Below are positions 1,209-17,746 of a stretch of DNA of 20,648 nucleotides, piece by piece. The DNA is taken from positions 845 through 21,492 of the forward strand of contig PMWA01000091.1 of assembly GCA_003166335.1 (NCBI GenBank). The letters are read 5' to 3'. Source of the stretch: Methanobacterium sp. (GTDB taxonomy: Archaea > Methanobacteriota > Methanobacteria > Methanobacteriales > Methanobacteriaceae). The position numbers were made by a program, and so were the translations under genes. The notes under the pieces are model-generated. The model saw only the letters and a list, made by a program, of their open reading frames with translations, made no database searches and was not told where the DNA came from. The stretch's first letter is position 1, and each line of letters begins with the position of its first letter.

Positions 1209-1670
1209 ATGCCAAAACATATAGTTTCAGGATTAAAGTATCTGACAGCAGTGGAGCTAATAAGAGACGGATTCAGTCAAAAAGATGTGGCTAATATACT
1301 TGAAATGGATAGATCAACCGTTTCACACTACTTGAATGGTAGAAACCTGTCATGGAACTCCATAGAAGTAGCAGAAATCATAACCAATTTTTGCTCTAGA
1401 GATTTCCTAACTTTGACTTACGCCCTTTTAAATGATTCTGAAAAGACAAGAATCATAATAAAAACTTGTTCAAAAAAAAAATATCAGGCAAAAGTTGAAG
1501 ATTCATGCATAGGCTGTGGACTTTGCGCAGATACTTGTCTGATGAACGCTATCATACTAGATGATCTAAAAGCAGAGATTGATGCTGAATGGTGCTGTGG
1601 ATGTCTAATGTGTGGGGATGTTTGTCCCACTAACTCAATAAAAATTTCGGAGGAAAAAAATGGTAGCTAA
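1209..1670 (+). CDS. fwdH: FwdH: N-terminal helix-turn-helix fused to a 2x[4Fe-4S] ferredoxin domain
   Basis: HTH-like [33 protein letters not shown] and [12 protein letters not shown] motifs; first gene of the fwd operon. Confidence 0.85.
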
Positions 1671-2721
1671 TGTTAAGGAAGTTAAAGCTAAAGAAGTTAC
1701 TGTAAAACGCGCTTCACCAGAAGAAAAGCGAGAACTCTCCTTTAAAGATGAAATCTGCGTTGGCTGTGGCATATGTGAAAAAATCTGCCCAGTACAAGCA
1801 ATAGAGCTAGGCCCTATCAATGCGATAGAAAGAACAGGCGTAGAAGAGTCTAAAATATCAATAGACGAAACTAAATGTGTACTTTGCGGTATGTGCAGTT
1901 CAGTATGCCCAGTAGATGCTTTAGAATTTGATATAGACGAAAAATCCATAAAAGAAATAGAAGGATATCCAAAACTAATCAAATCTGCAGAAATCAGCGA
2001 TGAAGACTGTATTTACTGTAAAGCATGTGAAACAGCCTGCCCCCGTGACGCCATAACCATAGCCAGAGTACTGCCAGATAGATCTAAACTCGTGACTGGT
2101 GAAATCGAAATTGACAAAGAAACCTGCGTAAGTTGTGGTATTTGTGAAGAAATGTGCCCAGCAGATGCTATAACTATGGAACATCATGAACCAACATCCG
2201 CAGAACCCACCGTATCCACCGATATTAATGTGGATAAGGAAAAATGTGTGTACTGTCTAATTTGTAAAAAATCTTGTCCAGTAGATGCTATAAAAGCCGT
2301 ATGTAGAAGCTGCTCTTACGGAGAATACGACCTCAACCCAGAAGACACTGAAATTAAAGGAAGTTCATTCATAGATGAAGAAGCCTGCGTAGACTGTGGA
2401 TGGTGTCAAGAAATCTGCCCTGTAGATGCAGCCCACGTTGAAAAAGCATTTGAAGGTGAACTTTTAATAGATCAAGAAAAATGTGAAGCATGCGGAGCCT
2501 GCCTTGAAATCTGCCCTTGCAATGTCCTATCATTCCCTAAAGAAGAGTTTGGAAAACAAGGCGCTGAAAATGTTAGAGCAGAAGAAAAATACTGCATATA
2601 CTGCGGAGCATGTGAAAAAGCATGTCCAGTAGAAGCTATAGAAGTTAAACGTACAGCAGTTAAACATACTCCCACCAAATCTAAATCATGGGAGAAAAAG
2701 ATGGAATCACTTAAAACCTAG
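1660..2721 (+). CDS. fwdF: Formylmethanofuran dehydrogenase subunit F (polyferredoxin)
   Basis: Eight CxxCxxCxxxCP motifs plus an extra CRSC; position in the operon. Confidence 0.93.
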
Positions 2722-2738
2722 AATCGAGGTGGACAATT

Positions 2739-2972
2739 ATGGTAGAATTAAAAGTAGATCAGGATAAATGTCTGGGATGCGGTAATTGTGTGGTTTCATG
2801 CCCTGTAAACGGAGCAATCAGCCCTGAATCAGCTGGCGGACACGGACCTAAAACAGAAGAAGTAATAATGATGGTGGAAAACGGGTTAGTTAAACTATTT
2901 AATGTGGATAAATGTACTCAGTGTGGAACCTGCCCACTTTTCTGTCCAACCGATGCGATATATCTGGAATGA
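2739..2972 (+). CDS. fwdG: Formylmethanofuran dehydrogenase subunit G (2x[4Fe-4S])
   Basis: [14 protein letters not shown]...GGHGP and [12 protein letters not shown] motifs; GAGGTG RBS. Confidence 0.9.
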
Positions 2973-2982
2973 GGTGTTATTC

Positions 2983-3471
2983 ATGACTTATATAGACAAA
3001 CCCAGTATTTCAAATGTTATAAAATTTGATGAACTCAACGTGGCTAAGGTTGATCAATTAAAGGTAATGCTCAATACAGGAACCGATATCTACCAGGGAG
3101 CTTGTAAAAAAAGAGGATCTACTCTAAAAGACGAGTACCGGAAAGTAGCCGGTGTAGCCTATATGGATCCTAAAGACATGGCTAAATTAGGTGTAGGTAA
3201 TTGGGACAGTGTATTAGTAAAATCTGATTGGGGTGCAGTAGTAGTTTACTCAGCCCATTCAAGGGACGCTCCCCATGAAGGAATGATATTCATTCCAAAA
3301 GGCCCCTGGGCTAATGTAATTGTTAGTAATGAAACATACTGTTGCAGTGACCCCACTTACAAAGGAATTGAAGCCACAGTAGAAAAATCGGATAAAGAAG
3401 TACTATTAATGGCTGATTTAATGAAAGAAGTGTACCAAAAATATACCAAGAAAGTTAAGGAGGTGGATTAA
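2983..3471 (+). CDS. fwdD: Formylmethanofuran dehydrogenase subunit D; start reassigned to ATG 2983
   Basis: [20 protein letters not shown] and PTYKG motifs (molybdopterin dinucleotide-binding domain). GAGGTG RBS at 2971-2976 supports 2983 over the ORF-track start at 2902. Confidence 0.9.
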
Positions 3472-3472
3472 G

Positions 3473-4813
3473 GTGGGATACGAAGAACCGGTAACTGACT
3501 ATGATAAAATCGTTGAAAACTGTACCTGCGCATTTTGCGGGAGTAACTGTGATGATTTAGATTGTCTCGTCAAAGACAATCATGTTGTTGCAGTAAGACA
3601 TGCCTGCCGACTCGGTGCTAGTAAAATCATGGAAGATGAAGACCAGAGACTTAAGGTCCCTATGATGCGAAATGAAAACGGTGAACTGGTGGAAGTAGAA
3701 TGGGAAACAGCTTTGGATGCAGCAGCTGAACTCATTGCTAACTCTGTAAGACCATTATTCTATGGTTGGAGTGAAACATCCATAGAAGCCATGAAACCAG
3801 GTCTTGAACTTACAGAACTGGTGGGAGCAGTTATAGACAACCAGGCCACCATTTGTCACGGACCAACTGTCCAGGCCGTTCAAAACGTGGGTTATCCCCT
3901 CATGACTCTCGGTGAAGTAAAAAACAGGGCGGATATGGTGGTTTATACTGGAAGTAACCCTATGAATGCTCACCCCCGACACTTATCTCGTTACACTACT
4001 TTCCCTAAAGGTTGGTTCAGGAAAAGGGGAAGATATGATAGAACATTGGTTACTTGGGATCCTAAATACAGTGACACTGCTAAACTCTCAGATATCTGGA
4101 TACCTTTCGAAGAAAACGGTGATTATGAATTTGTAAATGCAATAAGAGCTGTTTTAAAGGGTAAAAAACTTAAAAAAGATGTTATAGCCGGCATTCCTAC
4201 AGAAGATATTTATGAATTAACCGAAAAAATGAAGAACACTCAATTTGGTGCTCTCTTCTTCGGACTTGGTTTAACTCACACTTTATCTAAACAGAGAAAC
4301 ATTGACATAGCTATTCAACTTGTACAAGACCTTAATAAATACACTAAATGGGTGCTTCTACCAATGAGGGGCCACTTCAACGTTAATGGTTTTAACATTT
4401 TCATGTCCTATGAAATGGGATTCCCTTATGGTGTTGATTTCTGCAGAGGATACCCTCGATACATGATTGGAGAAACAACCACTATAGATCTTTTAAACAG
4501 AAAAGAAGCTGATGTATTCCTGGTAATTGCAGCAGATCCTGGTGCACACTTCCCAAGCGGAGCCAACATGCACCTGGTAGACATTCCCGTAATCCAGATC
4601 GATATACATTGGGGACCCACCACTGAACTGGCGGATATTGTTCTACCTGGAACATTCATTGGTGTGGAAACTGCAGGAACCAGCTACCGAATGGATTCAG
4701 TCCCACTTAACATGAAAAAGGCTATAGATCCACCTGAAACCTGTAGAGAAGATGAATGGATCGTAACCGAATTACTTAACAGGGTTAAAAAGATAAAAGA
4801 AGCTAGTAAATAG
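3473..4813 (+). CDS. fwdB: Formylmethanofuran dehydrogenase subunit B (W/Mo-bis-PGD catalytic subunit, Cys ligand)
   Basis: [11 protein letters not shown]e-S motif, ACRLG, ICHGP metal-ligand motif, [24 protein letters not shown]. Confidence 0.95.
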
Positions 4814-4823
4814 GTGATTTTCA

Positions 4824-6533
4824 ATGGAATACATATTAAAAAATGGTATTGTATACGATCCTATCAATGAAGTAAACGGAGAAAAAAAGGACGTAATGTT
4901 CAAGGATGGAAAAATAGTTGACAATGTATCAGACAGTGCTAAAGTACTAGACGTTACTGACAAGTTAGTGATGCCTGCGGGAGTAGACGTGCATTGTCAC
5001 CTTGCCGGTCCAAAACTTTGTTTGGGAAGATTATACAGACCAGAAGATGAAAGAAGAGGAGTAAAACCTAAAACTGATATTACCAGGGCAGAAACAGGAT
5101 TTTCCATACCAAGTTGTCCTGCCACAGGATATAGGTACTCTAGAATGGGCTACGGGACTGTAGTGGAAGCTGCGGTACCTCCATTAGAAGCAAAACATAC
5201 TCATGAGGAGATAATTGCTATCCCTAATATCGACATTCCAACACTACCACTGTTTGGAAATAACTGGTTTGTATTGCAATTCGTTAAAGAAGGTAATATA
5301 GAGGATTTAGCTGCATTTGTATCGGCATGGTTAAAGATAACCAAGGGATACGGTGTAAAACTTGTTAACCCCTGTGGAAGTGAAGCATGGGGTTGGGGTA
5401 TGAATGTGCATGGAATAGATGATCCCGCACCATATTGGGATGTAACAGCCAGAGAAGTAATAAGAGGATTGGCTGAGGCAAATGAGATGTTGGGATTACC
5501 ACATTCTATACATGTCCATCCTAACGACTTGGGTCATCCAGGAAACTTCCCTACTACCTTAAATACTATTGATTGCATGAAGGATATTAAAAAGAACAGT
5601 GAATACAGAAATCAGACCATCCATTTAACGCACGCACAGTTTCACTGTTATGATGGTACTAGTTGGAGGGATGTTACTTCCGGTGTCGAACCAGTTGCAG
5701 ATTACATAAACAAGCATGATCATGTAACCATGGATATGGGGCAGGTAACTCTTGATGAAACCACCACTATGACTGCTGATGGACCTATGGAGTACGATCT
5801 ATATGAGCTCACTGGTTTGAAATGGGCTAACAAGGATATTGAATTGGAAACAGCATCTGGGCTTGTTCCTTTCATTTACTCTGGAAGAAACCCGGTTCAC
5901 TCCCTCCAATGGGCTATTGGACTGGAATTAGCTCTTACGATTAAAGACACATGGAAAGTTGCCTTAACCACTGACAGTCCCAACGCTGGTCCATTTATCA
6001 GATATCCAAGAGTCATCTCTTGGTTGATGAGTAACCAGAGAAGAATGGAAATGATGGATAACAAGGAAGTTCACTCTTGGGCAGCGAGAAAATCATCTTT
6101 AGCAACTCTTGACAGAGATTATGATTTCTACGATATTGCAACCATCACTAGAGCTGGACCATCTAAAATCTACGGATTTGAAGATAGAGGTCACTTGGGT
6201 GTAGGAGCGCTGGCAGATATTGCAGTTTACGATCTGGAACCAAACAACTTCGATCCTTCAATAAACGCAGCGGCAGTGGAACAAGCCTTTGGAAATGCTT
6301 TGTACACCATCAAAGATGGTGAAGTACTGGTTAAAGATGGTGAAATCGTTAAAGTAGTATCTAGTAGACATGTTTGGTCTAATGTACAGGGCTTTGAAGA
6401 CGAAGAGAAAAGAGTAATCGAGCAGATCATGCCCATGTTCAATAAATACTATACGGTCAAATTCGAGAACTACAAAGTACATGACCACTACGCAGAACCA
6501 TCATGTGAATATAAAATTAATGCAAGTAAATAG
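4824..6533 (+). CDS. fwdA: Formylmethanofuran dehydrogenase subunit A (amidohydrolase fold)
   Basis: DVHCH metal motif, GVKLVNP (carboxylated Lys), [35 protein letters not shown]. Confidence 0.96.
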
Positions 6534-6544
6534 GGGTGTTAACT

Positions 6545-7354
6545 GTGAAACAAATAACCTTAACTCCAAAAAAGTTTTCCAGCATTGCCCTGGAATTTGA
6601 TGAACTTATTCTAGATGAAATATACAACTGGGATAAAGCAGACTTCGATAAGTATATGGTGCCTATTGGAAACTCTCGTTTCCCACTCAATGACTATTTT
6701 AACATAGAGGTAAAAGGTTCCGCTCAAGGACCTGAAGATGTTAAAATGGTTATAGATGGAGACGCAGGCAGAGTAAAATATATCGGATGTAAAATGAGTG
6801 CCGGAGAAATAATTGTTAACGGCGACGCAGATCTCCAAGCCGGTGCAGAGATGACCGGAGGTTCTTTAACTATAAATGGTAACGCTGAAAGCTACGCGGG
6901 TAGAGAAATGAGGGGCGGAGAATTAACCATAAAGGGTAATGTTAAAGAATACGCTGGAACATCTTATATTGGTGAGTGGAGAGGTATGAGTGGAGGAGTT
7001 ATAAATATCCACGGAAATGCCGGTAAACAACTTGCCGATGCCATGTCCGGTGGTGAAATCTACGTTAAAGGAAACTGTGACATACTGGCCGGTATCCATA
7101 TGACAAAAGGATACATTCAGATAGATGGTGACGTCACTCGCTGGCCTGGCGGCCAGATGAAAAACGGCACTATAGTTATCAACGGAAAACTCGGCAGACT
7201 CCTAGAAGGTTTTGAATCTGAAGGAATTGTAGCCGACCCTGAAGTTGATGGAAGACAGTTAACTGGTAGATACATTAAATACAAAGGGGACATCGGTGTT
7301 AACGGAAAAGGAACTTTATTGCTCAACGCAGAGAAAAACAGAAGTTTACTCTAA
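6545..7354 (+). CDS. fwdC: Formylmethanofuran dehydrogenase subunit C (beta-helix)
   Basis: Repeated GxxMxGGxIxIxGNA motifs and GEWRGMSGG. The GGGGTG RBS at 6533-6538 favours GTG 6545 (alternative start 6536). Confidence 0.93.
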
Positions 7355-7392: not shown

Positions 7393-7499
7393 AGACATTG
7401 GAAATAAATTTTTTTTAATAGGATGCATTCTAAATAATACTTAAAATTTAATGAAAAATTGAATTAAATAAAGATTAAACAAAAGTTTAGTTGATACAC

Positions 7500-7784
7500 A
7501 TGGAAAAAGAACTAAATCTGAAAAGCGATGAAGCCCTAGATTATATCAAAAATAACGTTGAAAATTATGATACCTTAGAGATATCCTTTAACAGAATATT
7601 TGTTCCAGGAGAAGTATTAGATATAGATGCGGATGAAGAAGAAAGTTTAAAACTTTTAATTCAAATGAATGGTGAATTAGTTAACGACACAGTTCAAATA
7701 GACTTGGTACGTATAAAAGACGATATACTGGAAATAAGACACATAAAAGATGATAAGTCTATTCTAATTGTAGTAGATGCTTAA
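7500..7784 (+). CDS. DUF2097-like conserved archaeal protein, paralog 1
   Basis: Acidic ~94-aa protein with the EALDYIKNNV..YDTLEISFNRIFVPGEV signature; clearly homologous to the next ORF. The family assignment is from memory. Confidence 0.7.
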   Translation: MEKELNLKSDEALDYIKNNVENYDTLEISFNRIFVPGEVLDIDADEEESLKLLIQMNGELVNDTVQIDLVRIKDDILEIRHIKDDKSILIVVDA

Positions 7785-7919
7785 AAAGAATTCAGTAAAC
7801 AAAAAACCTATTGTATTTTTCATTTAATTAATAAATTTAATATATTATAAACATCATAATCTATTATTACAAAAAAAGAACTTATTTATGTAATGCTTAT
7901 CCCCTGAAGGTTTGATATT

Positions 7920-8240
7920 ATGGAGAAAATGTTAACAATGGATTGTGATGAGGCCATAGACTATATCCGGAAAAATGTGAAAATTTATGATAATCTAGAA
8001 TTATCTTACCATAGAGTTTTCACTCCCGGTGAAGTTATCAATATTGAAGAATATGACTGCGATGAAGACCGGAAAAGCTGTCGAGTCATAGTACAAATTC
8101 AAGGAGAAAATGTGGGTCAAAGCGTGGAGGTTGACTTAGAATCAATAAAGGATGATTTAATTGAAATCAGACATCTACCCACAGGTGAAGAATACCCCAC
8201 CACTATTGTTATAGAAAAATGTGAATCAGAACTGGAATAA
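7920..8240 (+). CDS. DUF2097-like conserved archaeal protein, paralog 2
   Basis: EAIDYIRKNV..YDNLELSYHRVFTPGEV...IKDDLIEIRH aligns along its length with 7500-7784. Confidence 0.7.
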   Translation: MEKMLTMDCDEAIDYIRKNVKIYDNLELSYHRVFTPGEVINIEEYDCDEDRKSCRVIVQIQGENVGQSVEVDLESIKDDLIEIRHLPTGEEYPTTIVIEKCESELE

Positions 8241-11473: not shown

Positions 11474-12523
11474 TTATATAAACTTGCATAAAAACAATTC
11501 ATCAAAAAATGGACATCTTCCCCTACATTCAGAGATTACTGTACATCCCCTGCACTCTGATTTACAATTCGCATATATATTACTCCGATAATTGGCAAAT
11601 AAATCATGCCATACATATTCAAAATTAAATTGTTTTAAATTATAACTGTACACATTACTATTACAAAAGGAGCAGGGCTTTACATTCATCTTCTCATCTA
11701 TATATACACTGAAAAATCCACATTCACAACTATCCAAAAACTCCTTATCCAACTTAGTATTTTTCATTAAAACCGGAACAAAACAAGCATCAAAACCTAT
11801 ATTTAAACATGTAAACGGATTTTGAACCAAGTCTAGAAATAATTTCAATTTATCAGTGGATTTAATAACATCACCATTTACAGCACGTCCAGTGGGTTTA
11901 TAAGTTAAAAATATGATAGAATTGAAAGATTTTAAGTATTCATCATATTTCCCACTTAAAATTTCAATTGATTGGGGTAATGTTTTCTCTGAAACAACAT
12001 AATGAATATTAGTGCGAATTTTTTCATTTAAAAGACTTGATCCAAGTGTTGAAAGCTCTTCCAATGATAAACTCTCCCGATGGGGATCCCAGGATATGGC
12101 GACGGCACCACAATACTTCCTAGTTGCATCTAGGTTCTCCCTGTTGAAAAATCTACCGCAGGTAGTGTAATTAGGTATTATTCCAAATTCTTCCCGTGTT
12201 ATCTGAAGTATATTGTTAAATTCTGGGTGGAGTAACGGTTCACCACCACCCAATGCCACCTGGAATACTTTTCCATAGTTTGTACTGCTCAATTCGTTTA
12301 GAACATATCTATAATCTTCAACGGACATGAAATCTCCATTTTCATCACTCGACCTGTAACAGTGTTCACATCCATTAGTGCAGTAATTAGATATAGATAT
12401 ATCCGCAATCTCTGGCCAAGGTGCTGAATAGGGATTTTCAGAAAAACTATCACCCCACCTGAAGGTTACACCAGTTTCAGGAATACCCACAAAATTATAT
12501 CCATTAAAATGCTTTCTAATCAT
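11474..12523 (-). CDS. Radical SAM enzyme with C-terminal SPASM domain, function unknown
   Basis: CTNGCEHC (CxxxCxxC) and GGGEPLLHP; SPASM cysteines in CECG...VKPCSF and CKSECRGC...CRGRCP. Confidence 0.9.
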   Translation of the reverse strand: MIRKHFNGYNFVGIPETGVTFRWGDSFSENPYSAPWPEIADISISNYCTNGCEHCYRSSDENGDFMSVEDYRYVLNELSSTNYGKVFQVALGGGEPLLHPEFNNILQITREEFGIIPNYTTCGRFFNRENLDATRKYCGAVAISWDPHRESLSLEELSTLGSSLLNEKIRTNIHYVVSEKTLPQSIEILSGKYDEYLKSFNSIIFLTYKPTGRAVNGDVIKSTDKLKLFLDLVQNPFTCLNIGFDACFVPVLMKNTKLDKEFLDSCECGFFSVYIDEKMNVKPCSFCNSNVYSYNLKQFNFEYVWHDLFANYRSNIYANCKSECRGCTVISECRGRCPFFDELFLCKFI

Positions 12524-12585
12524 GATTATATTAAAAAAAATAATTTAGAGTACATAATTCTAAAAAATTTTTAATTTAAGAAGTT

Positions 12586-12987
12586 TTAATCGCAGGTACA
12601 TTTAGGGTCAATAGTTTGGGTAGCACCTACGCCATAAAGATCTCGACCTTTACCTTTAACCACTATCCAATTAATTAAATTCCACATCTCCTCATCCGAC
12701 AATTTACTTAAATCCATGCTGGCAATATCATCTGGATTAATATCATCTAACATGATGGATTTACCAATTTTAAATTTTTTCACAGTAAATAATACTTCAT
12801 CACTACCAATCTTAGTTTTATTACCTTCTGTTTCAAGTTCATCTCTCAAAAATGCTAGTAACTGTACTATCCCCTTTTCACCAGTTTTCTGGAAGTGCTC
12901 AATATTTGCCTTAAAAATATCTTCCTTAGCTGTTAAAATGAAACTGGTTGAACTACTATTAGTTACAAAATCCCCTCTAATTTTCAT
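12586..12987 (-). CDS. Hypothetical 133-aa protein with N-terminal MKIRGDFVTNSSSTSF motif; putative substrate or partner of the rSAM enzyme
   Basis: GGAGG RBS at 12998-13002 places the start at ATG 12987; co-oriented with and 62 nt upstream of the rSAM gene; ends in CTCD. Confidence 0.8.
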   Translation of the reverse strand: MKIRGDFVTNSSSTSFILTAKEDIFKANIEHFQKTGEKGIVQLLAFLRDELETEGNKTKIGSDEVLFTVKKFKIGKSIMLDDINPDDIASMDLSKLSDEEMWNLINWIVVKGKGRDLYGVGATQTIDPKCTCD

Positions 12988-13160
12988 AAAACCAAAACCT
13001 CCCATTATTAATATCAAAAAATAATTACTTTTTTCCAGTTAATTCTTTAATTTTATATTGTTTATTTTTTTCCTAAAATTTATTCAAAAAAAATTAATTT
13101 TATAAAAAGACAAAAATCTGTTCATGAATATTATTAATTTAATTCAATTATTTATTAATA

Positions 13161-13414
13161 TTAAATAAATCTTTTTTTCTCTAAGGGAATAACCGCTTTA
13201 AGATGAGTTTCTCCATCTAAAATCTTAACATCTATTCCATAGGCTTTCCTCATTTTCCTAAGTCATAACTTCCTCTGGTACTCCTTTAGCCATGATAGTA
13301 CCATTATTAGGATAATTATCTGATTGGATGAGATATGAATGTATGATCTGGGAAATGAGAAGTCATTATAACTGACAACTATTCCTTTGCTAAATTATCA
13401 TATTTTTTTCAATA
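13161..13414 (-). pseudogene. Degraded 3' remnant of a FepC/BtuD-type (iron/cobalamin-chelate) ABC ATPase; absent from the ORF track
   Basis: Minus-strand translation across frameshifts and stops: DNLAKE*LSVIMTSHFPDHTF / SNQIII / NNGTIMAKGVPEEVMT*EN / RKAYGIDVKILDGETHLKAVIP. This includes the H-loop and the GxPEEV...YG C-terminus typical of this ATPase class. Confidence 0.75.
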
Positions 13415-13416
13415 TA

Positions 13417-13830
13417 TTATTTTTTCCTCCATAGTAAGACCCATCGGGGGTTAGTGGTAGGGTGTTTTAGTGTTTCATTGTCTTTTTTGATTAAATTCTT
13501 TCTAAGAAAATTTTCGAGTTTTATTTTATCTTCTTTTTTAATTTCATTTACATTCCAGCCGTTTTTCCATAGGTAACGTGTCATGGCATCTTCAATGTTA
13601 TTATACACTGGAGGGGTCTGATTTTTAAACATTTCCACATTAGCGTATATATCTATTTGATAGAGCATGTTTAAGGCGTAGATGAAATTGGGGTGTTGAT
13701 GATATTCAACCTCCATGTATTCAGCTACTTCTTTATCAAATTGATCGGATATTGTTCCACATTTCATTCCAGTCAATATCCTCAATTTTTGAGATTGTAT
13801 TGTTTATATTACTATCCCTATCAGAACTAT
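13417..13830 (-). pseudogene. Class I SAM methyltransferase-like gene with the catalytic core deleted
   Basis: An N-terminal IEDIDWNEMW segment (IDWNEMW at 13757-13777) is joined out of frame to a C-terminal part (HPNFIYALNMLYQIDIYANVE...WVLLWRKK). No GxGxG motif lies between them. The 5' boundary is approximate. Confidence 0.6.
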
Positions 13831-13995: not shown

Positions 13996-14148
13996 TTATA
14001 GTATTCCTTTCAATTTATTTTTTCTAATATAATCGTTTATGGATCTTCTAATTAGATTACCAATAGGTTTATTCCCTTTTTTCGCTGAGATTTCCTTTAA
14101 ATCCTGGTACATTTCTTCAGGTATTTTCATGGTTATTTGTTTATCCAT
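13996..14148 (-). CDS. Ribbon-helix-helix (CopG/MetJ/Arc-like) DNA-binding protein
   Basis: MDKQITMKIPEEMYQDLKEIS...IGNLIRRSINDYI has the beta-alpha-alpha RHH pattern; GAGG upstream of ATG 14148. Confidence 0.75.
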   Translation of the reverse strand: MDKQITMKIPEEMYQDLKEISAKKGNKPIGNLIRRSINDYIRKNKLKGIL

Positions 14149-14214
14149 TTTTGGGAATTCCTCTACAGAATTTATTAGCATAATTTTTTCAAAAATAATA
14201 ATTTTGGTAAATAG

Positions 14215-14796
14215 TTATTCATTTTCTGGGTTTATACACCATTTGCAGATGGTTTCGTTTTCATCTTGTACAAAGGATTCACCGCAAATGTTGCATATTG
14301 TCACTTTCTTTTTATGTTTTATGGGAAGGGGTAGATCGATTAAGTACCAGCTATAAACATCTGCATCTGCTTTTATGAGTTCGTTTATACCATCTTCATG
14401 GGAAACTTTAGCTTCGTTCATATACCATGCGTGGAATATGGGATAATCAACGGTTTTTTCAGGGTCTAGAACGATTCTGACACTTTTAACAGTTTCTTCT
14501 CCCGGTGGGGCTGCTTTGTTTATAGTTACAGCCATCTTTCCATGATCTATAATTTTCAAGCCTTTATTTCCTATGGTACTGCTGCATAGTATTTGGAATG
14601 TGTCTGGAAGGCAATTCTGGGTTTCGCAGGTTACGAAAATTCGATCACCCTCTTTTATGTCCAGTAATCTTCTGGCTAGGTTGAGCATTTGCAGACCTAT
14701 GAATGCTCCAGTACTCAGGTATCCGTGAAAGGGGATAATTTTCTCTATTTCTTCCCGTAAATCGGGGTCATCTATTTTTTCTATAATTTCATCCAT
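14215..14796 (-). CDS. fmdE: FmdE-family protein with C-terminal zinc finger
   Basis: FHGYLSTG, ETQNCLPD.FQ...STIGNKGL and GKMAVT motifs; C-terminal CNICGE...CKWC. The GGGTG RBS favours ATG 14796. Confidence 0.82.
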   Translation of the reverse strand: MDEIIEKIDDPDLREEIEKIIPFHGYLSTGAFIGLQMLNLARRLLDIKEGDRIFVTCETQNCLPDTFQILCSSTIGNKGLKIIDHGKMAVTINKAAPPGEETVKSVRIVLDPEKTVDYPIFHAWYMNEAKVSHEDGINELIKADADVYSWYLIDLPLPIKHKKKVTICNICGESFVQDENETICKWCINPENE

Positions 14797-15027
14797 TATT
14801 TTTACACCCAATTAAAATCGTTAAATATTAAGTAAAGAGGTTTTTTTAATTTTCCGATAAATTGTATAATGAAATTAAAAACTTTTAGTAAAAGTAGGAG
14901 TCTATTTCATCGTAAAATATTTATGAACAAGTTTTGAGTTTAGTATTATAGTATAGTTTATGAAATCAATTTACAGTATAATTTTAAGTTTGGTTTATTT
15001 TTTACTAGAAACTAATTTTTTTTAATG

Positions 15028-15158
15028 TGGATGCTAGGGCTCACACTTATCTTAGAATATCCCCTTTTTTTAATTTCCCAATTGGTTTGGTGATCTAACT
15101 GATCATTAAGGAGATAAATTCTTTTGGGTGTAAGCCCTTTTTAGGTAAAATGCATCCA
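15028..15158 (-). ncRNA. Putative structured RNA element (nested multi-stem) between the fwdF-like gene and fmdE; family unrecognised
   Basis: Nested complementary segments 15028-15034/15152-15158, 15036-15046/15128-15138 and 15054-15066/15108-15122, plus a hairpin at 15091-15105. The mismatches read as G-U pairs only on the minus strand. Confidence 0.5.
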
Positions 15159-15222
15159 TTTTTAAATATATTTTCCTGTAAGTAATTCAAAAAAATTTTA
15201 AAAAATAATAAATAAGTTAATT

Positions 15223-16239
15223 TTATTTGGATGTGGCTTCAACTAGTTTGTTCATTTGTTTTTGCCAGGATGCGCTGCGTACATTTTCGAGGTTAATTTT
15301 TTCTCTTTTTACGATTATGCCTTTTTGAGGGCAGGCTTTAGCACATGCTCCGCAGAGAATGCAGAATCTCTCATCAACTACGGATTTACCATCGACGATG
15401 GATACTGCATTGCAGGGGCAAATATCAACACAGGCATGGCAGGAATCTCCTTTACATTCGAAATCTTCTTTGAAGATTATTTCCCCTTCAAATGGTTTGG
15501 TAACGGTTGTTGCATCTACGGGGCAGACTTCTTGGCACCATCCACAGTTTATACATGTTTCTTCATCGATGAAAGCGTTTCCAGTAATTTCAGCGTCTTC
15601 AGGATGTATTTCATACGCTCCGTAGGAGCATGATCTGCACGCGGCTTTTATTGCTTTAACTGGGCAACTGCGTTTGCATATGAGACAATAAACACATTTA
15701 TCTTCATCAACCGTGATTTCAGGTTCTTCAGGATTTTCTTTGTTCATGGTTATTGCTTCTGCGGGGCACATTTCTTCACAGATTCCACAGTATATGCAAG
15801 TATCTTTATTTATATCTATTTCACCAGAAACCAGTTTAGTTCTTTCTGGTAGTTTTCTAGTGACGGTTATGGCTTCTGTGGGGCATGCAGTTTCGCATGC
15901 TTTACAGTATATGCAGGTTTCTTCGTCGATGTTTGCTTTCTGCTCCCATTTTGGATAGGCTTCGAGTTCTTTAATGTTTACGTCATCTATCTTGAATTCC
16001 ATAGCTTCAAATGGACATGAAGCTGCGCATAATCCACATAATGCGCATTTTTCTTTATCTACTTTCACGTAATCCATGTCTAGTAAGCCTCTAGCTATGG
16101 GTACTAGGGGACCTAATTTCAATGCTTCGGTTGGGCAAATGTCTGTACATATGCCACATCCTACACATTTTTCTTTTTTGTAGCTAAGAGAGCGTTTTTG
16201 GCTTCCTTCTCTTTCTACGGTGGGTTTTACCTCAGACAT
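15223..16239 (-). CDS. fwdF: Second FwdF-like polyferredoxin (paralog of 1660-2721)
   Basis: Eight ferredoxin motifs plus CRSCSYG; shares blocks such as [31 protein letters not shown] and CGWCQE with fwdF. Confidence 0.85.
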   Translation of the reverse strand: MSEVKPTVEREGSQKRSLSYKKEKCVGCGICTDICPTEALKLGPLVPIARGLLDMDYVKVDKEKCALCGLCAASCPFEAMEFKIDDVNIKELEAYPKWEQKANIDEETCIYCKACETACPTEAITVTRKLPERTKLVSGEIDINKDTCIYCGICEEMCPAEAITMNKENPEEPEITVDEDKCVYCLICKRSCPVKAIKAACRSCSYGAYEIHPEDAEITGNAFIDEETCINCGWCQEVCPVDATTVTKPFEGEIIFKEDFECKGDSCHACVDICPCNAVSIVDGKSVVDERFCILCGACAKACPQKGIIVKREKINLENVRSASWQKQMNKLVEATSK

Positions 16240-17245: not shown

Positions 17246-17746
17246 GTGAAAAAATTGGATTTAATTAAGTACAAACCAATCGGGATTATAAAATCCCCAT
17301 TTAAAAACTTAGAAGGCATGCCTATACAACCAATCGGTGCTTGCGGTGTTACTGGAGAAATACATATTGAAGACGAGTATAAGGAGGGACTTACTGATCT
17401 AGAGGAATTTTCCCATATAATGCTCATTTACCATCTTCACTTGTCAAGAGGATATTCCTTAAGTGTTAAACCTTTTTAGGATAATAAGATGCATGGTGTG
17501 TTTGCAACTAGGGCTCCAAAACGCCCTAATCCTATAGGATTATCAGTGGTTCGTCTTATAAAAGTGGAGGGTAATGTATTACATATTTCAAATGTTGATA
17601 TTGTGGATGATACACCTTTACTTGATATAAAACCGTATATTCCTCATTTTGATAAAGATGAGGGTGAAGAACTATGTATCGGGTGGTTTGAGGATAAGTA
17701 TCATGAAGCGGTTAATAAAAAGTCAGATAATAGATATTCAAATTAA
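17246..17746 (+). pseudogene. tsaA: tRNA m6t6A37 methyltransferase TsaA/TrmO family, interrupted by an in-frame TAG at 17477-17479
   Basis: The two ORF-track pieces are in the same frame (KPF*DNKMHGVFATRAPKRPNPIGLS); PIGIIKSPF, LEEFSH and DTPLLDIKPY motifs. Confidence 0.8.

What the first reader, a model, noticed from the sequence alone, without database searches (positions are those of the whole stretch)
15028..15158. Unannotated nested multi-stem element upstream of fmdE: candidate archaeal riboswitch-like leader or ncRNA in a Mo/W locus
Seen: a comparatively GC-rich ~130-nt island sits inside a very AT-rich 400-nt spacer. Read on the minus strand (the direction of the flanking genes) it folds into nested helices. 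P1 is UGGAUGC/GCAUCCA (7 bp). P2 is AGGGCUUACAC/GUGUGAGCCCU (11 bp, one G-U). P3 is AGAAU-uu-AUCUCCUU/AAGGGGAUAUUCU (13 bp, one G-U, 2-nt bulge). These enclose a UGAUC-aguua-GAUCA hairpin and a possible CCAA/UUGG hairpin. Both imperfect pairs are G-U on the minus strand but A-C on the plus strand, which favours an RNA-level structure over a DNA palindrome. The P3 strand UUAUCU can alternatively pair with AGAUAA (15047-15052), a mutually exclusive fold. Inference: it could be a cis-regulatory RNA (metal or pterin-cofactor sensing, given fmdE, wtp, mop and moaA nearby), an independent ncRNA, or a folded MITE-like relic. I do not recognise it as a known family.
Basis: partly seen in the sequence, partly recalled or inferred. 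Interest (0 to 1): 0.8.

Follow-up and report, generated by a model that had tools for sequence, protein, structure and literature searches.

The report
RNA structure outliving its dead gene
This stretch is the remnant of a dead methyltransferase gene in a methane-making archaeon whose predicted RNA stems stayed paired while the rest of the gene decayed, probably in two separate lineages, so it is likely a working RNA element, possibly controlling the neighbouring fmdE gene.

Summary
The fold is real (z -5.4), single-copy and unmatched in Rfam. The element is the 5' coding part (codons 1-47) of a class I SAM methyltransferase gene that still lies, intact, directly before fmdE in sister genomes. 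In eight relic taxa 187 of 192 stem cells stay paired. None of 600 neutral simulations reached that, even at 0.3x the synonymous rate. A second non-coding copy in another genus, probably independent, keeps the same outline and loop and also precedes fmdE. Part of the structure already exists inside intact coding copies. Best reading: an RNA structure overlapping a coding sequence was kept and tightened after the gene died. It probably acts in cis on fmdE, perhaps by swapping the P1 3' strand onto the fmdE ribosome-binding site; support for that swap is suggestive only. No ligand is shown, and transcription evidence is weak.

The parts
15029..15176 (-). Relic of the first ~47 codons of a class I SAM-dependent methyltransferase gene; frameshifted, with the Gln codon of the loop changed to a stop
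   Evidence: Aligns to nt 2-141 of the G001 CDS, score 89.5 against shuffled 43.6+-6.4, max 65 of 200; Pfam Methyltransf_11/25 for the intact protein
15152..15159 (-). P1 5' strand (ex-codons Met-Asp-Ala)
15027..15034 (-). P1 3' strand (ex-codons Ala-Ser just after the SAM-binding glycine motif); predicted alternative partner of the fmdE ribosome-binding site
15128..15138 (-). P2 5' strand (ex-codons Gly-Ala-Phe-Ala-Pro, remodelled)
15036..15046 (-). P2 3' strand (ex-codons Val-Gly-Ala-Gly-Pro, remodelled)
15108..15122 (-). P3 5' strand; present in all relics but variable in sequence and register
15054..15066 (-). P3 3' strand
15078..15102 (-). P4 hairpin: 6-bp stem with a loop whose first 7 nt (15096-15090) are invariant in all non-coding copies found
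14794..14811 (-). Ribosome-binding region and ATG of fmdE; candidate target of the P1 3' strand (and in this genome a 10-bp match to the P2 5' strand)
14215..14796 (-). fmdE-family gene downstream of the element
   Evidence: PF02663 E 7e-29
15223..16239 (-). Second fwdF-like polyferredoxin gene upstream, followed by an oligo-T tract
   Evidence: NF042909 467 bits against cut-off 375; sequence

Best explanation
The element is the surviving 5' coding piece of a deleted SAM-methyltransferase gene whose predicted nested RNA stems stayed paired and were tightened after the gene died, and it likely acts in cis on the fmdE mRNA, where the P1 3' strand would either close P1 (fmdE translated) or pair with the fmdE ribosome-binding site (fmdE silenced). 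Shown by calls: descent from the gene, synteny, conservation of pairing beyond neutral expectation. Inferred: that it works as RNA on the minus strand (about 0.85), that it acts in cis on fmdE (about 0.5), that it does so by the P1/RBS swap (about 0.35). The trigger is unknown; my guess in order is a protein (FmdE itself), then SAM or a Mo/W-pterin species. In the intact ancestral operon (fmdE1-DUF364-methyltransferase-fmdE2) the same helix would have been an mRNA structure inside a coding sequence.
For: Descent; intact gene directly before fmdE in G001 and G016, and G016 shows the order fwdF2-fmdE1-DUF364-MTase-fmdE2. Only the folding part of the gene is recognisable (nhmmer: 8 of 10 spacers hit model nt 18-143 at E<=5e-4, G004 0.04, G163 0.31; nothing for the 3' half better than E 1.3). 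Selection: 187 of 192 stem cells paired, with no break at an interior pair; two double compensatory changes; 34 of 48 stem columns invariant against 38 of 93 fourfold sites of fwdF (Fisher p 0.001). Tree length 0.31 against 1.29; 0 of 600 simulations reach the observed pairing at 1x, 0.5x or 0.3x rate. 23 G-U cells against 3 terminal A-C cells favour the minus strand (counted). Second relic in G163: z -6.7, closer to coding copies (61.5, 57.5) than to the other relics (33.5-46.5), different upstream gene, still before fmdE (61 nt). Coding copies: P2 above the synonymous null (p<=0.022) in 10 of 26 family members and 0 of 16 distant homologs; mean z -1.43, the lowest of 25 window pairs. Switch: the P1 3' strand:RBS fold lies within -2.4 to +6.5 kcal/mol of the P1 fold and below the null mean in 8 of 8 leaders; it is the MFE fold in G163. 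RNA contigs run from fwdF into the element and from the spacer into fmdE.
Against: Only eight relic taxa of one genus plus one outsider, so few independent double changes; no R-scape test. P4 and the loop were picked after aligning. The antisense strand folds as well or better in G017, L109 and G004. P3 is poorly kept (72% paired). Synonymous conservation across codons 8-47 of coding copies is not raised (0.53 against 0.47, p 0.12), and much of the P1/P2 complementarity follows from the amino acids (null 10 of 14 pairs for the G001-type peptide). The RBS pairing was chosen among four parts tried; only 1 of 8 leaders beats all 35 controls; kin are not independent. In equilibrium folds 6 of 8 leaders do not use it. 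In the main clade the RBS is 167-230 nt away, and an internal fmdE promoter is not excluded. G163's fmdE is itself frameshifted, which fits poorly with an element kept to control it. Independence of the G163 copy rests on an unstarred branch (87/80) and alignment scores. RNA data are contigs from one study, without strand or ends, and no contig spans the element.
Confidence: 0.5

Rival explanations
1. The structure is a static mRNA stability or processing element (no switch): it protects or defines an end of the fwdF2-fmdE-wtp transcript, and did the same inside the ancestral operon.
For: All evidence for selected pairing fits equally. It sits just after the fwdF oligo-T tract. The P1-closed fold is the predicted ground state in most leaders. 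mRNA processing is widespread in a methanogen (PMC5499594, listing only).
Against: Does not by itself explain an invariant single-stranded loop or the RBS complementarity trend. No processing site could be mapped.
Confidence: 0.2
2. It is an independent trans-acting small RNA of the OxyS/StyR-3 type; the invariant loop resembles the anti-Shine-Dalgarno end of archaeal 16S rRNA (recalled, not in this assembly) and would pair with GGUGAU-type ribosome-binding sites.
For: Closed P1 boundaries and an invariant loop. GGTGA is the commonest of the SD motifs counted (160 of 1609 upstream regions). TATA-like boxes about 35 nt before P1 in G005 and G012. Precedent in bacteria.
Against: No promoter-like site at that place in 6 of 8 leaders. 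Both lineages keep it before fmdE. The loop is simply ex-Gln-Ile-Thr codons. Only 1 of 1609 sites has the full 8-nt complement.
Confidence: 0.15
3. A non-functional or DNA-level pseudogene remnant: the stems are a by-product of complementary codons and persist by chance, by hairpin-biased repair, or because a protein binds the DNA core.
For: The amino acids alone give most P2 pairs. The intact G001/G007 genes already fold this way. The antisense fold is as good in 3 of 9 relics. G163's fmdE is decaying.
Against: 0 of 600 neutral simulations match, even at 0.3x rate. G-U rather than perfect pairs accumulate on one strand. Linkers take many indels, while the stem strands take none in the eight taxa.
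Confidence: 0.12
4. A MITE or other mobile element.
For: 8-bp terminal inverted arms (P1); a copy in another genus.
Against: One copy in the genome; always before fmdE; the arms are explained by coding ancestry; the flanks are not conserved as duplications.
Confidence: 0.01

Closest known systems
OxyS, StyR-3 and STnc240: sRNAs derived from degraded protein-coding genes (bioRxiv 10.1101/2021.10.18.464853; passages read)
   Same: A non-coding RNA occupies the syntenic place of a lost gene and is homologous to one end of it; StyR-3 comes from a 5' end, as here.
   Different: Here the host is an archaeon; the piece is a four-helix nested structure bounded by its own closing stem; the helix is detectable inside living coding copies; the event probably happened twice; the likely action is in cis. 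Expression as a discrete RNA is not shown.
Moco/Wco riboswitch candidates and other Rfam riboswitches (features recalled; library searched)
   Same: Structured element ahead of Mo/W-related genes, with a possible RBS-sequestering alternative.
   Different: No covariance-model match at E<=5; narrow distribution (one archaeal family); coding origin; no ligand data.
Tfx control of fmdECB in Methanothermobacter (PMC3087415, passages read)
   Same: Regulation of an fmdE-containing unit in a related methanogen.
   Different: Tfx is a DNA-binding protein acting near a promoter. This fmdE is not followed by fmdCB, and the element is an RNA-type structure.

Membership tests
Any Rfam 15 family (incl. 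Moco, SAM, fluoride, TPP riboswitches) | Covariance-model match at gathering score | tested here: not met
   No hit over the element at E<=5 in the window or at E<=2 in 7 homologous loci
Riboswitch (general) | Conserved structure with compensatory changes and invariant nucleotides | tested here: met
   few independent changes, no R-scape
Riboswitch (general) | Lies in the leader of the controlled gene's transcript | tested here: inconclusive
   Always before fmdE; RNA contigs cover both sides but none spans it; internal promoter not excluded
Riboswitch (general) | Mutually exclusive expression platform | tested here: inconclusive
   P1 3' strand:RBS, below null mean in 8 of 8, individually clear in 1 of 8
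Riboswitch (general) | Direct, selective ligand binding | not testable with these tools
   Needs in-line probing
sRNA derived from a degraded protein gene (OxyS type) | Homology to a coding gene at the syntenic position | tested here: met
sRNA derived from a degraded protein gene (OxyS type) | Discrete transcript | tested here: inconclusive
   Only contigs available
sRNA derived from a degraded protein gene (OxyS type) | Trans targets | not tested
   Only SD motif counts
MITE | Many dispersed copies | tested here: not met
MITE | Target-site duplication | tested here: not met
   Flanks are A/T-rich ex-coding sequence and differ between homologs; judged by eye

The most novel reading that the evidence does not exclude
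A ligand- or protein-responsive translational switch for fmdE was born inside a methyltransferase coding sequence, was released from coding constraint by gene death in two archaeal lineages independently, and converged on the same four-helix fold with an invariant loop: a riboswitch-like element caught in the act of originating, in methanogens.
Probability: 0.2. Interest if true: 0.92.

Novelty: new variant of a known kind. Interest (0 to 1): 0.72.

Why it matters
How structured regulatory RNAs arise is an open question, and few cis-regulatory RNAs are known in archaea (own knowledge). Here close proxies of the ancestor (intact genes), a possible intermediate (a frameshifted gene with the helix intact) and two descendants are all in hand. 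One can put coding and liberated versions side by side in probing and reporter assays and ask when function appeared. It also suggests a search method: gene relics whose surviving part is exactly a closed fold point to RNA elements hidden in coding sequences. Ten literature searches (open-licence library only) showed no description of this element.

Tried and rejected
Rfam: nothing. Viral contigs: 0 matches to the core pattern. The 12-nt core alone is unspecific: of 30 loci read, 4 were the element and the rest lay in unrelated coding DNA. In metagenomes 5 of 92 matches were the element. Model searches over 150 and 32, 26, 40, 150 and 23 genomes (samples overlap) found only relics and copies of the same methyltransferase gene; seven weak hits (E 0.008-0.34) were inspected and are unrelated. 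None in 23 genomes of genus g19, whose gene copies lack P2. No second gene context (e.g. directly before wtpA) was found. P2 5' strand as anti-RBS: perfect 10 bp here, but costs +8 to +20 kcal/mol in 7 of 8 leaders. The loop pairs with its own fmdE RBS no better than controls. A loop pseudoknot with the P2 3' strand gives only about 4 conserved pairs (by eye). Region-wide synonymous conservation in coding copies: not significant. A 3' remnant of the gene in the spacer: weak, not significant. The promoter scan gave no consistent site. Missing RNA cover at about 15007-15100 proves nothing. The pair statistics come from a model-fitted alignment that includes weak hits and were given little weight. 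Four look-ups of earlier findings returned nothing. The one-clade (AU) test for the G163 copy was not run.

Full report
Observation. The minus strand folds to -42.3 kcal/mol (z -5.35, 0 of 200 shuffles), the plus strand to -39.4 (z -3.50). The element is 35.9% GC in a spacer that is otherwise 16.9% GC. It lies 64 nt after an fwdF-like gene and its oligo-T tract, and about 230 nt before an fmdE-family gene. Rfam has no match, and there is one copy in the genome. Record titles of related loci name Methanobacterium and Methanobacteriaceae.

Homologs. Of 16 close fmdE orthologs found in the 19 genomes of the genus, 6 have the element upstream (G000, G017, G005, G004, G002, G012). Five of 92 metagenome pattern matches are further copies, of which L096 and L151 duplicate genomes already held. 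P1, P2 and P3 recur.

What it is made of. A profile of the element also hit the first codons of a class I SAM-methyltransferase gene in G001 (E 4e-13) and G016 (E 8e-10), where that gene sits directly before fmdE. The window's spacer aligns to nt 2-141 of the G001 gene with score 89.5 against 43.6+-6.4 for 200 shuffles. For G005, G004, G002 and G012 this pairwise test alone was not significant; the gene-family profile recovers 8 of 10 spacers at E<=5e-4. P1 is ex-Met-Asp-Ala paired with ex-Ala-Ser, P2 is ex-Gly-Ala-Phe-Ala-Pro paired with the glycine motif of the SAM site, and the loop is ex-Gln-Ile-Thr. G016 keeps the order fwdF2-fmdE1-DUF364-methyltransferase-fmdE2. The relic clade has therefore lost fmdE1, DUF364 and most of the methyltransferase from this place; G012 and G002 carry a separate intact cassette downstream. 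The window's genome has no close intact copy (best 36% identity). The 3' half of the gene is no longer detectable.

Selection after gene death. I used eight taxa, leaving out L093 as a near duplicate of L145, and L096 and L151. In P1, P2 and P4, 187 of 192 cells pair; the five breaks are at the last or next-to-last pair of a helix. There are two double changes (G-C to A-U in P1, U-A to C-G in P2) and seven positions with one-sided changes through G-U. Invariant columns are 34 of 48, against 38 of 93 fourfold sites of fwdF (p 0.001). On the fwdF tree the fourfold sites have length 1.29 and the stems plus loop 0.31. Limits: few taxa, columns partly chosen after aligning, and the antisense strand folds as well or better in 3 of 9 copies. 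A methods review warns of misalignment and coding effects in such analyses (PMC11234323, passages); I therefore relied on ungapped stem strands rather than on the model-fitted counts.

A second relic. The covariance model found a non-coding copy in G163, another genus (E 8e-5). It follows a heavy-metal P-type ATPase gene and ends 61 nt before a frameshifted fmdE. It folds with z -6.7 and keeps P1, a rewritten perfect P2 and P4 with the same loop. It scores better against coding copies (61.5, 57.5) than against the other relics (33.5-46.5), and its fmdE groups with G001's (87/80, unstarred). The two lineages remove the P2 bulge and the C-A mismatch at the top of P4 by different changes. Independent origin is likely but not proven.

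Structure inside living genes. The G001 and G007 coding segments already form P1 and P2 and most of P3 (z -2.4 and -3.3 against synonymous recodings). P2 pairing exceeds the synonymous null at p<=0.022 in 10 of 26 family members and 0 of 16 distant homologs (4 more lacked the anchor motif). A register-free duplex test gave 10 of 27 against 1 of 17, with P2 the lowest of 25 window pairs. Two synonymous position pairs show different Watson-Crick pairs in different genera. Against this, kin are not independent, the peptide itself supplies most pairs, and synonymous conservation over the region is not raised (p 0.12). Still, Ala46 uses one codon throughout, and Ile27 is ATC in 19 of 26 against 60 of 438 elsewhere in the gene.

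How it may work. The element follows fmdE, not fwdF, which points to action in cis (inference). The P1 3' strand is complementary to the fmdE ribosome-binding region: it ranks in the top 0.8-7% of 400 control sites in 5 of 8 leaders and at 13-55% in the other three. The P1-open, RBS-paired fold is within -2.4 to +6.5 kcal/mol of the P1-closed fold and below the control mean in all 8, but beats all 35 controls in only one; in G163 it is the ground state. I therefore propose that P1 closed means fmdE on and P1 open means off, with something binding the P4 loop to tip the balance. That last step is a guess. FmdE proteins with a zinc finger have been suggested to bind RNA or sense metals (PMC2954224, abstract passage). 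DUF364 was linked to flavin or pterin chemistry (PMC2954201, start of abstract in a listing). The dead gene used SAM. None of these is tested. RNA-library contigs from one peat study run from fwdF through the T tract into the P2 5' strand (a related strain) and from the spacer into fmdE. They show no strand, start or end, and DNA carry-over is not excluded.

Comparison and verdict. It works like a structured leader and arose like OxyS or StyR-3 (bioRxiv 10.1101/2021.10.18.464853, passages). It is not a member of any Rfam family, not a MITE, and not shown to be a riboswitch. Ten searches of the open library found no description; no supplements were read, and motif tables there could bear on novelty. 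Relic origin about 0.97, selected RNA structure about 0.85, cis action on fmdE about 0.5, ligand- or protein-triggered switch about 0.2. Interest 0.72.

Noticed in passing
window 17246-17746 (+): The TrmO/TsaA-like gene is split by an in-frame stop into 77- and 85-aa ORFs; relatives have one 162-163-aa ORF.
   Followed up: partly
window 11474-13785 (-): A cassette of a radical SAM/SPASM gene (not MoaA), a 143-aa protein with a TNSSS motif and a 122-aa orphan lies between fmdE and wtpA here but not in G017, G005 or G004. A similar radical SAM/TNSSS pair lies beside the methyltransferase gene in L241.
   Followed up: partly
window 13996-14181 (-): 61-aa ORF right after fmdE, ribbon-helix-helix-like by eye, no Pfam hit; a possible small regulator.
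   Followed up: no
L208 / L288 (G220:C1): Methyltransferase gene with a broken frame in its first codons but P2 intact: a possible early stage of the same decay, or an assembly error.
   Followed up: partly
L264, L265 (G012, G002): These genomes carry both the relic and, downstream of fmdE, an intact fmdE1-DUF364-methyltransferase-ABC transporter cassette of a different gene lineage.
   Followed up: partly
L240: One homolog outside the family (record title: Halobacteriota) has a strong P2-region duplex in another register, 0 of 200 recodings as low.
   Followed up: no
window 1209-7354 (+) and 15223-16239 (-): Two fwdF-like polyferredoxin genes in the window: one in the fwd operon, whose first gene joins a helix-turn-helix to a ferredoxin domain, and one beside the mop and fmdE genes.
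   Followed up: no
window 7491-8240 (+): Two tandem DUF2097 genes between the fwd operon and the wtp transporter.
   Followed up: no
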